A stretch of DNA of 57,453 bases, from contig JAPKXU010000184.1 in assembly GCA_026394655.1 (NCBI GenBank), forward strand, positions 1 through 57,453, given 5' to 3'. Position 1 is the stretch's first letter. The number at the start of each line of letters is the position of its first letter. Under the pieces are notes generated by a model that searched no databases, was not told the DNA's origin, and was given only the letters and a program-made list of their open reading frames with translations. Positions 1-52,635 of the stretch are shown here, one piece after another. The position numbers and the translations under genes were made by a program. The stretch comes from Methanoregula sp. GTDB lineage: Archaea > Halobacteriota > Methanomicrobia > Methanomicrobiales > Methanospirillaceae.

Positions 1-1213
1 CACGTCAATCAGTGTAACCGGCGAATACGACCACGAGTTTAGAACCCGGCTCATCGAGATAGTCCGTGGACACTCCAAAGATCACCGTGACGATCTCAAA
101 CAATTCGTCATCTCACTGGTAACCAATCAGGACGGGATTCCTGTATTCATGGAACCGTTATCCGGAAACGCATCTGATAAAAAGATCCTGCTCAAATCGA
201 TCCAGGCAGTAAGAAACAACCTGGCTACCCAACAAACGATTTATCACATGGCAGATTCTGCATTTTACACCAGCGGGAATATCCAATCTCTCGGCCAGCA
301 TTGCTTCTGGATCAGTCATGTTCCCATGACGATAAATGAAGCAAAAGAACTTGTTGCATCAGAAGTCTCATGGACTGCCTGCGAGGATATCCGGTACAAA
401 TATGCGGTCTACGAGCGTGAATATGGCGGGATACAGCAGAGATGGGTCATGTTTCACTCCGCTGAACAACAAAAACGGGTTGATGCAAAGTTAATGAGCC
501 GGCTTGAGAAGCAGATGAAAAAAGATAAAACTGCGTTGAAAAAACTATGCTCGAAAGGATTTGCCTGTGAACCGGATGCACGCGCCGTTGTTGAACGTTG
601 GAATGCCAAGAATCCCCGGTACCGTATCGCAGATGTGGGAATAACTTCAGGACAACGGCGTAAATCCGGTAAACGCGGTCGCCCGACAAAAGATGAAACG
701 TGTGAAGTTGTCTACAGAGTTTCATGCAAGGTCGCTCTCGATGAGAATTGGGTACTCAAGACGCAGGAACATGCCGGGCGGTTCATCCTTGCCAGTAATG
801 ACGTCAGTATCGATCCGGAAACTATGCTCGAATACTACAAGGAACAGAATTCGGTTGAACGGGGATTCCGATTTCTCAAAGATAAGCGATTCCATGTTTC
901 AGAAGTCTATCTCAAAAATGAGAACCGTATTGCTGCGCTGTCTATGCTCATGGTGCTCTGTCTCCTGCTATACTCGGTGGCAGAATGGCTGTTCAGGAAG
1001 ATCCTCAAAGAGCGGAATGCCACTGTCATGAATCCGAGAAATAAACCTACTGCAAAACCTACGATGAAAAGGGTGTTCTTTTTGTTTCGGAGGGTTCGTC
1101 AAGTGTTGGAACTTGTAGGTTCTACGGTCCACTGTCGTTTGTTGAATGTCAATGAAGAAATAATTCGTATTACCGGCATGTTTGGAGCGGGCTTTGAAAA
1201 ATACTATTCCTGA
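1..1213 (+). mobile_element. IS1634-family DDE transposase, 5' end outside the window
   Basis: Frame is open from position 2: TSISVTGEY..GHSKDHRDDLKQFV..DGIPVFMEPLSGNASDK, then ADSAFY, GRFILASN and YKEQNSVERGFRFLK (IS1634 DDE motifs). Confidence 0.92.
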
Positions 1214-1221
1214 AAAAATAA

Positions 1222-1235
1222 CTGCCGAATGTCGG
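1222..1235. repeat. Probable right terminal inverted repeat of the IS1634 element (CTGCCGAATGTCGG)
   Basis: Begins 9 bp after the transposase stop and resembles IS1634-type ends as I recall them. Cas1 homology on the minus strand stops here. Confidence 0.65.
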
Positions 1236-1756
1236 TTCAACCCACCTTTGGAGAATCCCCTCTTCTTCCATTCTGAATAAGGGATTGAGAGAATCTTCTT
1301 TCTAATCTCGTCGGAATCGTGTCGATCAATCTGATATTCTGGTGATACCAAATCGAGAGATTTCTTCTTACTGATGAGATAATGAGCAAGTTCCCGCGCT
1401 TTGAGGAATATCATGTAATTCCAAGAAGTCTCTTTCTCCTGATAACGAACGGTCTTATTGAGCCAGGTATTGAGTTCAGCCGTGACCTTTTGCGCTCCCG
1501 AAGATCGCAATTTCAAGGTAAAATTATCCGTCCTCAGGAAATCTTTCTTATCGATAATCCCCTTTTCAACGATACTGAGGACTGCGAGATCCACGAGAAA
1601 TCGGAACAACTCCTGCATATCGTAAGCGAGACTGTATTTACCGATCTGCATCTCGTGTAAGAAACCTACGTGAGCATCGAGGCCACTGGCATTAATGGCG
1701 CGTAAACATTCCGCTTCCAACAGGCCATATCCGTAATTCAGCATACAGTTAACTGG
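1236..1756 (-). pseudogene. cas1: Cas1-solo / casposase (family 2-like) C-terminal fragment; N-terminus missing, C-terminus cut by IS1634
   Basis: PVNCMLNYGYGLLE..GLDAHVGFLHE..SLAYDMQELFRFLVD Cas1 motifs, plus a casposase-like C-terminal extension (DSDEIRKKILSIPYSEWKKRGFSKG). In-frame stop at 1763-1765; no cas2 or array. Confidence 0.85.
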
Positions 1757-1877
1757 AAAGGCTCAGCATATGGTGTCCCTTTTCAATTACCATTATCATT
1801 TTAATTGCCAGTATAATCATCAAGATACCAGCAATCATAAGACTAATACCAGTCACATAGAGCGTCTTGTAACTCAT
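1749..1877 (-). CDS. Small 42-aa hydrophobic ORF (MSYKTLYVTGISLMIAGILMIILAIKMIMVIEKGHHMLSLSS), possibly a truncated membrane protein
   Basis: Manual translation: ATG at 1877, one TM-like segment, divergent from padR. Confidence 0.35.
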   Translation of the reverse strand: MSYKTLYVTGISLMIAGILMIILAIKMIMVIEKGHHMLSLSS

Positions 1878-1910
1878 ATACCCACCAACTATCAAAACCA
1901 ACCTTCCAAA

Positions 1911-1979
1911 CACTTATATCAGAACGGCTTCAATCTGAACTATAGTTCGAAATAGAACTATATCGGAATCGAACTATAG
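1911..1979 (+). promoter_or_regulatory. padR promoter (TTATAT at 1914-1919) with a repeated/palindromic operator
   Basis: GAACTATA at 1937, 1955 and 1971; perfect 11-bp inverted repeat CTATAGTTCGA (1940-1950) / TCGAACTATAG (1969-1979). Confidence 0.65.
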
Positions 1980-1981
1980 AT

Positions 1982-2464
1982 ATGACTAATCTATTCAAAT
2001 TTTCACCACATCGCGGAAAAGCGAGGAGTTTACTAGCTATGTACATACTCCATACGCTCCAGCACCAGCAAAAATCCGGTTACGACATCCTCCGAGAGAT
2101 CAAAGAGGTGACAGGAGGGACGTGGGTTCCAAGCAAAGGCACCCTTTATCCCTTGCTCCACCAGCTCGAAGCGGAGGGGCTCATTATTGTAGCTTCAACA
2201 GAGTCACGGGAACGAACCGCTTTTGCGCTGACCCCACAGGGGCTTGAGACCCTTAAAAAGATCATCGCGAGGGGCGGGGAGCACTACAAAAAACTCGCGC
2301 ATTTCCGGCACCTCATCCTTGCGATCTTAGGCAGCGGAACATGCCAGGTCACGGGACTTCTTTTTGAGATAAAGATGCTCGTTGAAGATATGCCGCCAGG
2401 AAAGGAAAAAGTGGTCGGGGAGATTCTCGAAGACTGCCGCGATAAACTCAAAAAAGTGATCTGA
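1982..2464 (+). CDS. PadR family transcriptional regulator
   Basis: SGYDILREI..WVPSKGTLYPLLHQLEAEGLI..FALTPQG winged-HTH signature. Confidence 0.92.
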   Translation: MTNLFKFSPHRGKARSLLAMYILHTLQHQQKSGYDILREIKEVTGGTWVPSKGTLYPLLHQLEAEGLIIVASTESRERTAFALTPQGLETLKKIIARGGEHYKKLAHFRHLILAILGSGTCQVTGLLFEIKMLVEDMPPGKEKVVGEILEDCRDKLKKVI

Positions 2465-2465
2465 T

Positions 2466-3452
2466 ATGACTGTAGCACTACATATCGAAAACCTGACCCG
2501 GCGTTTTAACGATCTGGTCGCCGTGAATAATATATCATTTGACATCGAACACGGGGAAATTTTTGGCCTGCTTGGCCCCAATGGTGCCGGGAAGACCACG
2601 ACCCTCTCCATGCTCTCCACCATGCTCAAACCCACATCTGGGAGAGCGACGGTCAATGGCATCGATATAGAACACGATGAAGACGGTGTCAGGAAATCCA
2701 TTGGCATTGTCTTCCAAGACCAGAGTCTTGACGAAGAACTGACGGCTTGGGAAAACATGGACTTTCACGGGCGGCTCTACCGTATCCCCGCAGACATACG
2801 AAAGCAACGGATCACTGAACTTCTCAAACTCGTTGAGCTTGAAGACCGGAAAAATGACATTGTCAAAACATTTTCAGGTGGGATGAGGAGACGCCTTGAG
2901 ATCGCCCGTGGTCTTCTCCACCATCCTTCGGTCCTCTTCTTAGACGAACCAACGCTTGGTCTTGACCCCCAGACCCGCAACCATCTCTGGCAGTATATTG
3001 CCACCCTGGCACGGGAGAAGGGGATCACTATCATCCTCACCACGCATTACATGGAGGAGGCCGACCGGTTGTGCAACCGGGTCGCTATTATCGATCACGG
3101 GAAGATCATCGCCCTTGACACTCCAAAAAACCTAAAAGACGGGATTGGCGGGGACGTCGTGACCATCCGGTCTCCGGACCCGGCAGCTATTGTTGCAGCG
3201 CTGACTGAACCCTGGATCACCCGCGTGGAACAGCATAACGATGAGGTGATTGTCAGCCTGCAGAACGCCGAACAGCATATCAGCACCATCGTAACGCTGC
3301 TCACCGCAAAACAGGTCCCCATCAAGTCCATCGCGATACACAAACCGACCCTTGAGGATGTGTTCCTCTCCTTTACCGGAAAAACCATCCGAGAGGAGGA
3401 TGCGGACCATAAAACCAATATGCGGATGTACCAGAGGATGGTGAGGCATTAA
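2466..3452 (+). CDS. ABC-2/DrrA-type exporter ATP-binding protein
   Basis: Walker A GPNGAGKTT, signature FSGGMRRRL, LFLDEPTLGLDP, TTHYMEEA, C-terminal PTLEDVF. Confidence 0.95.
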   Translation: MTVALHIENLTRRFNDLVAVNNISFDIEHGEIFGLLGPNGAGKTTTLSMLSTMLKPTSGRATVNGIDIEHDEDGVRKSIGIVFQDQSLDEELTAWENMDFHGRLYRIPADIRKQRITELLKLVELEDRKNDIVKTFSGGMRRRLEIARGLLHHPSVLFLDEPTLGLDPQTRNHLWQYIATLAREKGITIILTTHYMEEADRLCNRVAIIDHGKIIALDTPKNLKDGIGGDVVTIRSPDPAAIVAALTEPWITRVEQHNDEVIVSLQNAEQHISTIVTLLTAKQVPIKSIAIHKPTLEDVFLSFTGKTIREEDADHKTNMRMYQRMVRH

Positions 3453-3454
3453 TC

Positions 3455-4204
3455 ATGGACATCATCTACACCATCTGGCTCCGGAATATGAAACGCTATA
3501 TCCGGTCCAAAAGCCGGATCATCGGCAGTATCAGCATGCCGCTCTTCTTTTTACTCTTCTTAGGTTTCGGCCTGAATTCCGTTGTGCAGTTGCCCGGGGT
3601 GGGAGGGAACTATATCGTATTCCTGATCCCGGGCATGGTCGCCATGAGCGTATTGTTCACGTCGGTTTTTTCCGGGATTCAGATCATCTGGGACAAACAG
3701 TTCGGCTTTTTGAAAGAGACACTTGTAGCACCGGTCTCGCGGCTTGAGATTATGTTAGGTCAGACTGCCGGTGGGGCAACAACTGCAGTCCTCCAGGGAT
3801 TTATGATCCTTGTCCTCTCGGTGTTCATCGGGCTCCATATCTCAAATCCGGCTGGTTTTCTGATTGCATTCGGATTCATGATCCTGATTGGTATATCATT
3901 CACCGCGTTTGGCATTGCGATTGCATCGCGGATGGAAGATATGACCGGTTTCCAGCTCATCATGAATTTTGTCGTCTTTCCCATATTCGGCCTGTCCGGG
4001 GCGCTCTTTCCTATCAGCTCATTGCCGGCATGGATGGGACCGGTTACCCTGCTCGATCCGCTGACGTATGGTGTGGAAGGGATCCGGTACGGTCTCACCG
4101 GCGTTTCACAGGTTAACCCGTTGGTCTGTGGTGCGGTTATTGGAGGTTTCACCGTAGTGATGACCATACTCGGAGCATTCCTGTTCAGGAAAATCAGGAT
4201 CTGA
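3455..4204 (+). CDS. ABC-2 type exporter permease (DrrB-like)
   Basis: About 6 TM segments; WDKQFGFLKETLVAPVSR, LSGALFPI, DPLTYGVEGIR. Confidence 0.93.
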   Translation: MDIIYTIWLRNMKRYIRSKSRIIGSISMPLFFLLFLGFGLNSVVQLPGVGGNYIVFLIPGMVAMSVLFTSVFSGIQIIWDKQFGFLKETLVAPVSRLEIMLGQTAGGATTAVLQGFMILVLSVFIGLHISNPAGFLIAFGFMILIGISFTAFGIAIASRMEDMTGFQLIMNFVVFPIFGLSGALFPISSLPAWMGPVTLLDPLTYGVEGIRYGLTGVSQVNPLVCGAVIGGFTVVMTILGAFLFRKIRI

Positions 4205-40364: not shown

Positions 40365-40439
40365 TGGGGTCGCTGAGATTTGAACTCAGGTCACTGCGTC
40401 CCGAACGCAATAGGATAGACCAGGCTACCCTACGACCCC
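40365..40439 (-). tRNA. tRNA-Pro(CGG)
   Basis: GGGGTCGTAGGGTAGCCTGGTCTATCC-TATTGCG-TTCGGGA-CGCAG..CTGAG-TTCAAAT-CTCAG-CGACCCC-A folds as a cloverleaf. Confidence 0.95.
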
Positions 40440-44130: not shown

Positions 44131-44163
44131 CCAATCCCCTCGATAGTGAGATTTTCTCTTTAG

Positions 44164-44248
44164 CGCTGAGGGAGGGATTTGAACCCTCGAGTCCCAAAGG
44201 GACACAGGTTTAGCAAACCTGCGCCATACCAGGCTTGGCTACCTCAAC
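44164..44248 (-). tRNA. tRNA-Ser(GCT)
   Basis: GTTGAGG..CAGGT-TTGCTAA-ACCTG, long variable arm GTCCC-TTT-GGGAC, GAGGG-TTCAAAT-CCCTC, CCTCAGC-G. Confidence 0.95.
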
Positions 44249-52495: not shown

Positions 52496-52635
52496 ACAGC
52501 ACTTTTTAATGTGCTGACAGATGTAAGTCCGACGTGCTTCACCGCACTGCCCGAACGTGGCTTTGGGATTACAGGGGGTCAGTAAGCTTACTGCACTTTC
52601 TGGACTTACAGGACGTCTTTGAAGGAGGTATAACT
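52496..52635 (+). ncRNA. Structured 5' leader of rps15 (probable S15 r-leader)
   Basis: Closing stem TGTAAGTCC (52522-52530) / GGACTTACA (52602-52610) encloses GTGC..GCAC, CCCGAA..TTTGGG and CAGTAAGCTTACTG hairpins, ahead of a GGAGG RBS. Confidence 0.65.

What the first reader, a model, noticed from the sequence alone, without database searches (positions are those of the whole stretch)
1236..1756. Casposase (Cas1-solo) fossil, cut at both ends
Seen: Cas1 motifs (PVNCMLNYGY, GFLH, YDMQE) followed by a C-terminal extension ending ..WKKRGFSKG, with no cas2 or array nearby. Homology starts abruptly at ~1756, two codons downstream of an in-frame stop (1763-1765), and ends at the IS end. Established: family 2 casposons of methanogens encode Cas1 with a C-terminal HTH. 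Inference: a decayed casposon (or a piece of one) lies at the left edge of the window and beyond.
Basis: partly seen in the sequence, partly recalled or inferred. Interest (0 to 1): 0.7.

Follow-up and report, generated by a model that had tools for sequence, protein, structure and literature searches.

The report
Casposon stump cut by two transposons
This is a broken piece of the Cas1-like integrase gene of a casposon (a known transposon of methanogens), split by one insertion sequence and cut off at the end of another, so the element is likely dead; it is an ordinary remnant, and similar stumps turn up in many related genomes.

Summary
Confirmed. Window 1753-1236 (minus) encodes residues ~201-373 of a family 2 casposase: E 7e-71 to the M. 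mazei casposase structure against 3e-17 or worse for other Cas1s, and nested in a 100%-supported casposase clade. The 3' cut is an IS1634 with a perfect 6-bp duplication. The missing C-terminus is on contig C92, followed by one cargo gene, a 50-bp terminal repeat, a CGCA-led 14-bp target site and tRNA-Leu(CAA). The N-terminal half, PolB, HNH, HTH genes and second end were not found in the 82%-complete genome. About 1.7 kb of casposon DNA survives. Known kind. Side result: target-site-plus-end scars occur in 47 of 108 genomes of the genus against 2 intact elements, mostly on the target-proximal side, and two genomes hold core-less elements with both ends.

The parts
1..1235 (+). IS1634 element, right part (transposase 2-1213, right terminal repeat 1221-1235); a matching left end is on C92:1-311
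   Evidence: NCBIfam NF033559 264 bits, cut-off 100; ends alike at 13 of 15 bases; N-terminal transposase frame on C92
1236..1241 (.). 6-bp target duplication of the IS1634; second copy at C92:312-317
1236..1753 (-). Family 2 casposase fragment, residues ~201-373 of ~405: second half of the Cas1 catalytic domain (His 1657-1655, Glu 1612-1610) and most of the C-terminal HTH extension. Last 30 codons and stop are on C92:313-405
1754..1785 (+). Lone 32-bp end of an IS481-like element, outer edge at 1754; marks the 5' cut of the casposase
   Evidence: Same motif ends multicopy elements in G000 and G001; C280 transposase best hit NF033577 IS481, E 3e-11, below cut-off as a partial protein; outer hexamer has TA at positions 3-4 like 11 of 12 other copies
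1786..1960 (.). Unassigned AT-rich DNA with the start of a short hydrophobic ORF (minus, 1913-1749) that runs into the IS end; not shown to be casposon DNA
   Evidence: no tblastx match in G000 or in the loci held at that time
1982..2464 (+). Host PadR regulator, first gene of a PadR-ABC transporter unit; right boundary, not part of the element
   Evidence: Pfam PF03551; match in 32 of 108 genus genomes

Best explanation
This is the surviving stump of a family 2 casposon beside tRNA-Leu(CAA), whose casposase gene is split by an IS1634 and cut at an IS481-like end, and whose core and far end were likely deleted, so it is predicted to be immobile. Shown: order tRNA-Leu > 14-bp CGCA-led target site > 50-bp terminal repeat > cargo ORF > casposase tail > IS1634 left end (C92), and IS1634 right end > casposase middle > IS481-like end > host PadR-ABC (window). 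Inferred: (a) C92 and C170 join through the same IS1634 copy; (b) the casposase originally read the tRNA T-loop motif and CGCA and integrated the element with a 14-bp duplication, as shown in vitro for the M. mazei and A. boonei enzymes; (c) an IS481-like element landed in the gene, and a later deletion from 32 bp inside that IS removed the rest of it, the N-terminal half, HTH-HEAT, HTH, HNH, PolB and the far end; (d) the order of the two IS events is unknown, but inactivation is fairly recent. No product can be active: the N-terminal domain and the E162-equivalent are gone.
For: PDB 6OPM E 7e-71 over residues 4-174 including the tail; next Cas1 3.5e-17. Tree clade 100% with casposases whose elements I mapped. 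Of 77 metagenome loci, 55 carry another casposon core gene; of the 37 at least 8 kb long, 33 carry PolB; the Cas2 probe hit none of them. C92 tail 85% identical to residues 372-398 of P0002, in frame across a perfect 6-bp duplication. Terminal repeat 49 of 50 identical to the end of the intact element in G118. tRNA-Leu target with CGCA and 14-bp duplication is the published family 2 pattern (PMC4779613, PMC6977970 passages). Core genes of two intact elements give no tblastn hit at E<=0.01 in G000, and neither a second end nor a second target copy was found. Differences from an intact relative are 31/8/88 at codon positions 1/2/3 with no stop in 172 codons.
Against: No contig spans the IS1634; G000 has three left ends of it (C48, C68, C92) and C68's flank also fits a 5-bp duplication, so the join rests on frame continuity. 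The assembly is 82% complete, so missing genes may be unassembled. Logan contigs break at the 32-bp motif and do not bridge it. The tree holds no family 1, 3 or 4 casposase and not 6OPM itself. No relative with the pre-deletion locus was found, so the deletion's size and cause are not shown.
Confidence: 0.85

Rival explanations
1. Same casposon, but the rest still exists: an IS481-mediated inversion or translocation, or a contig mis-join at the 32-bp repeat, put the N-terminal half and the core in the unassembled part of the genome. The casposase is still broken by the IS1634.
For: 82% completeness, 322 contigs; the 32-bp motif is high-copy in the source communities and contigs break there; M. 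mazei casposons are often split between contigs (PMC4779613 passage).
Against: Depth is about equal on both sides in three studies (8.8/10.2, 40.7/40.2, 8.9/8.1); that exact 32-mer variant occurs once in G000 and lone ends of the same kind occur at C296, G069 and G091; none of four core genes is found even in part.
Confidence: 0.1
2. The stump arose at integration: only one end was joined at the target and the partial element was resolved by recombination, so no complete element ever stood here.
For: Single-ended products form in vitro (PMC6977970 passages); exact terminal-repeat hits in the genus are 21 target-proximal, 4 distal, 2 unclassified of 27 (one search matched by hand).
Against: Here the inner boundary is exactly an IS481-like end at a typical target hexamer, which points to IS insertion and deletion; tRNA genes and reuse of the target can also explain why the proximal end is kept.
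Confidence: 0.04
3. It is a fragment of a CRISPR-associated Cas1 or of the inactive group 1 solo Cas1 of Methanomicrobiales.
For: Generic Cas1 models match (TIGR00287 above cut-off); the genome has both other kinds (C79, C226).
Against: All 8 subtype-level models listed are far below cut-off; 31-33% identity to the C79 and C226 proteins against 73-88% to casposases; separate clades; HTH tail, terminal repeat and target site present.
Confidence: 0.01

Closest known systems
Family 2 casposons of methanogens, e.g. MetFor-C1 of Methanoregula formicica (PMC4046053, passages and supplement hits)
   Same: Casposase 73% identical to the protein NCBI names M. formicica Cas1 (P0014); C-terminal HTH tail; tRNA-Leu target; 14-bp target site; terminal repeat starting with a closely similar 16-mer.
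   Different: Only 1.7 kb survives against 14.9 kb; one end only; no PolB, HNH or HTH genes; casposase in two pieces; different cargo gene.
M. mazei casposase, PDB 6OPM (PMC6977970, passages)
   Same: E 7e-71 over residues 217-387; His232 and Glu247 equivalents kept; CGCA target and upstream motif at -17 to -10.
   Different: Lacks residues 1-200 including Glu162; cannot fold as the full enzyme (inferred).
Solo-TIRs and inactivated casposons of M. mazei and Methanococcoides burtonii (PMC4779613, passages)
   Same: One end left beside a CGCA target after degradation of a full element.
   Different: This stump keeps a cargo gene and half the casposase, and both cutting agents (IS1634, IS481-like) can be read from the sequence.

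Membership tests
Family 2 casposase (protein) | Clusters with casposases apart from CRISPR Cas1 and group 1 solo Cas1 | tested here: met
   IQ-TREE, 61 sequences, 130 columns, UFBoot 100; families 1, 3, 4 not included
Family 2 casposase (protein) | C-terminal 60-70 residue HTH extension | tested here: met
   Aligns to the 6OPM tail to residue 387; remainder on C92; HTH fold itself taken from the literature, not modelled
Family 2 casposase (protein) | Intact catalytic triad E162/H232/E247 | tested here: not met
   His and second Glu present; first Glu lies in the lost half
Family 2 casposon (intact element) | Two terminal inverted repeats | tested here: not met
   One found (C92:1542-1493); no second in G000; assembly 82% complete
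Family 2 casposon (intact element) | 14-bp target duplication starting CGCA, often at tRNA-Leu | tested here: inconclusive
   One copy at the tRNA-Leu(CAA) 3' end; second copy not found with up to 1 mismatch
Family 2 casposon (intact element) | Core genes PolB, HNH, HTH, HTH-HEAT | tested here: not met
   No tblastn hit at E<=0.01 in G000; present in intact relatives G061, G118, G050
Family 1 casposon | Protein-primed PolB, no HTH tail | tested here: not met
   HTH tail present; definition from PMC4046053 passages
CRISPR-associated Cas1 | cas2 or array adjacent; subtype clade | tested here: not met
IS481 family (the 32-bp end) | End of an element that encodes an IS481 transposase | tested here: inconclusive
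   Related end precedes a partial transposase on C280 whose best model is IS481, E 3e-11 but below cut-off; no transposase remains at the window copy

The most novel reading that the evidence does not exclude
The stump is one case of a genus-wide, one-sided casposon life cycle: elements land at T-loop-plus-CGCA targets, lose their core, and leave the target-proximal end with cargo genes in nearly half of the species. Where both ends survive (G063, 1.76 kb; G078, 5.07 kb) the result is a natural casposase-less mini-casposon that a visiting casposase could move in trans, making casposons a gene-delivery route in these methanogens. The window's own one-ended stump could not move.
Probability: 0.2. 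Interest if true: 0.6.

Novelty: new member of a known kind. Interest (0 to 1): 0.3.

Why it matters
The fragment itself is an ordinary dead mobile element. Its value is as a clear example of how a casposon is destroyed, and as a pointer: searches by casposase find these elements in few genomes of the genus (2 full-length in 108), while their ends are in 47. Casposon traffic here is thus much larger than protein searches suggest. The natural non-tRNA sites also carry the upstream motif that in vitro work found essential.

Tried and rejected
CRISPR Cas1 and group 1 solo Cas1: rejected. A nonsense mutation at 1763-1765: rejected, the stop lies in the IS end. A second terminal repeat or target copy in 1786-1980 or elsewhere in G000: none. 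PadR-ABC as the normal neighbour of this tRNA: in 6 of 6 fetched PadR loci (10-15 kb each) there was no tRNA or C92 match, so the pre-insertion gene order could not be rebuilt. Cargo protein: no Pfam or NCBIfam family, four relatives, all unnamed or hypothetical. Expression: no RNA holder listed, uninformative. An IS-free allele in Logan contigs: no such joint listed, but contigs cannot show absence. Sigma-70 scan found nothing and does not suit an archaeon. The 'cas2/nocas2' labels in the tree come from one probe and undercount Cas2. An alignment of casposase tails for a genus count failed and was not repeated. The first hexamer count used a faulty pattern; one search replaces it. Earlier findings of the scan: two look-ups, nothing.

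Full report
Setting. The window is the start of contig C170 of a 2.26-Mb, 322-contig, 82%-complete genome. The host is a Methanomicrobia archaeon (Rfam S15-Methanomicrobia leader), probably Methanoregula: the named loci with the best DNA match are Methanoregula. The genus name is inferred.

Observation. All motifs are there in a stop-free frame of 172 codons, 1753-1238 on the minus strand. Pfam Cas1 scores 101.8 bits. The best solved structure is PDB 6OPM at E 7e-71 over the whole fragment including the tail; the next of 15 matches is 3.5e-17 and stops at residue 133. That 6OPM is the M. mazei casposase is recalled; its numbering fits PMC6977970. Full-length relatives are about 405 aa and 55-88% identical, so the fragment is residues ~201-373.

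Identity. An IQ-TREE tree (61 sequences, the 130 columns of the fragment's Cas1 part) nests it in a clade with 100% support that holds P0014 (named M. formicica Cas1 by NCBI), P0011 and L214. Cas2-linked Cas1s, including the genome's own on C79, and group 1 solo Cas1s (C226) fall outside. I chose 22 of the 120 listed homologues; families 1, 3 and 4 are not in the tree. Context agrees: of 77 metagenome loci (3 further, 38%-identical Cas2-linked loci left out), 55 carry another casposon core gene, and 33 of the 37 longer than 8 kb carry PolB. Three intact elements in relatives show the core HTH-HEAT, HTH, HNH, PolB on the casposase's 5' side; the G061 (14.9 kb) and G118 (9.0 kb) elements have both ends and perfect 14-bp duplications at tRNA-Leu.

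The 3' cut. Bases 1-1235 are an IS1634. Full-length casposases find the missing tail on C92:313-393 at 85%. C92:1-311 is the left end of the IS, and the same 6 bases flank both ends, with the casposase frame continuing to a normal stop at C92:405. Three left ends exist in the genome and C68 also fits 5 bases, but only C92 continues the gene. No contig spans the IS.

Beyond the left edge. C92 then has a 311-aa, low-GC ORF with no family, a terminal repeat at 1542-1493 that is 49 of 50 identical to the G118 element's end, a 14-bp site starting CGCA at 1556-1543, tRNA-Leu(CAA) at 1637-1553 and a 1,300-aa host ORF that I recognise as the PolD large subunit (recalled, not tested). This is the published family 2 arrangement: the last 4 bp of tRNA-Leu overlap a 14-bp duplication led by CGCA (PMC4779613 and PMC6977970, passages).

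The 5' cut. Similarity to intact relatives stops at 1753. Bases 1754-1785 match the outer 32 bp of a multicopy element whose copies sit at contig ends in G000 and G001 with different outer flanks and identical inner sequence. A related end precedes a partial transposase on C280 whose best model is IS481, below cut-off. The outer hexamer has TA at positions 3-4 in 11 of 12 other copies and in the window (TA frequency 3.75%). So 1753/1754 is a true insertion junction (inferred), and everything inside the IS after 32 bp is gone. Logan contigs of three studies hold 1209-1782 unchanged and the DNA from 1756 on at similar depth, but break at the repeat; the fourth run laid did not cover the fragment. 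One of these runs may be the genome's source.

What is missing. The four core proteins of two intact elements give no hit at E<=0.01 in G000; casposase residues 1-157 give none outside C79; no second end or target copy was found. About 1.74 kb of casposon DNA survives. Against relative L093 the fragment differs at 31/8/88 first/second/third positions: it evolved as a working gene and shows no decay, so inactivation is fairly recent (inferred). It keeps the His232 and Glu247 equivalents but not Glu162, so it cannot be active.

Mechanism. Shown: the anatomy on each contig. Inferred: integration at tRNA-Leu by the casposase; IS1634 and IS481-like insertions into the gene in unknown order; a deletion from inside the latter that removed the core and far end. 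Confidence 0.85; the main rival (0.10) is that the rest lies in unassembled DNA.

Genus-wide side result. Casposase matches at E<=1e-40 occur in 5 of 108 genomes, 2 full-length. Casposon PolB matches occur in 17 of 108, 2 full-length and the other 15 only within residues 736-886 (some may be similar HTH tails). The target-plus-end pattern occurs in 47 of 108 genomes (65 sites by my count; reversed control 2). The opposite-end pattern gives 22 sites in 21 genomes, several being the same sites or doubtful (control 3). Of 27 exact end hits, 21 are target-proximal, 4 distal, 2 unclassified (matched by hand). G063 (1.76 kb) and G078 (5.07 kb) have both ends, duplications alike at 13 of 14 bases, and no core beyond a casposase tail tip in G078. 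Of the 30 sites fetched (of 65), 11 were set aside as tRNA-adjacent by a relaxed scan (one of them, L082, wrongly) and 2 more as tRNA-like; 11 of the remaining 17 have the T-loop-like 8-mer at -17 to -10 within one mismatch (background 0.1%). The motif was read from these same data, but matches the in vitro determinants (PMC6614799 abstract and Discussion; PMC6977970 passages). Patterns were built from four genomes' ends, kin are not independent, and many genomes are incomplete.

Comparison with print. Solo ends from degraded casposons are described for M. mazei, and inactive elements for M. burtonii. A synthetic mini-casposon moves in vivo using chromosomal proteins (PMC10359463, passages). 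Family 2 PolB is RNA-primed (PMC4046053, passages; supplement hits for MetFor-C1). Four searches (casposon with Methanoregula; with tRNA-Leu or target site duplication; with non-autonomous; with solo-TIR; listings only, plus passages of PMC6563490 and PMC13343696) showed no report of natural two-ended core-less casposons or of a census in this genus. The supplements of PMC4779613 were not read and may list such cases.

Verdict. Real, correctly read by the first stage, and of a known kind: interest 0.3, mostly for the genus-wide lead.

Noticed in passing
G000:C238:5790-5875: A second, tiny casposase tail remnant with an internal deletion and frameshift at a contig end.
   Followed up: partly
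L172:1831-3589 (G063:C74): 1.76-kb element at tRNA-Leu(TAG) with both casposon ends, 13/14 duplication, no core gene, and a second pair of ends nested inside (2456-3517) around a 165-aa ORF.
   Followed up: partly
L173:1686-6750 (G078:C9): 5.07-kb element at tRNA-Leu(CAG) with both ends, 13/14 duplication, five or six cargo ORFs and only the last ~64 codons of the casposase.
   Followed up: partly
108 genomes of the genus: Casposon end scars in 47 genomes, strongly biased to the target-proximal end; many keep cargo plus the 3' tip of the casposase or PolB.
   Followed up: partly
L062-L091: Non-tRNA insertion sites carry a tRNA T-loop-like 8-mer at -17 to -10 from CGCA in 11 of 17 cases.
   Followed up: yes
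L026:16850-16865 (G118:C6): An intact 9.0-kb casposon shares its distal duplication with the proximal end of an older, core-less element: tandem reuse of the target.
   Followed up: partly
G000:C296:3331-3362, L221, L224: Other lone IS481-like ends cut at or shortly after 32 bp, where the motif ends in a near-inverted copy of its own start; a cryptic inner end may cause these deletions.
   Followed up: partly
G000:C79, C226, C186: A CRISPR cas1-cas2 locus (C79; cas4 and cas6 neighbours recalled from sequence), a group 1 solo cas1 (C226) and a short array at the start of C186.
   Followed up: no
L015: A full-length casposase, 57% identical, on a contig titled Nanoarchaeota archaeon; host range or binning not checked.
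   Followed up: no
window 52498-52572, 40365-40439, 44163-44248: S15-Methanomicrobia leader, tRNA-Pro and tRNA-Ser.
   Followed up: no
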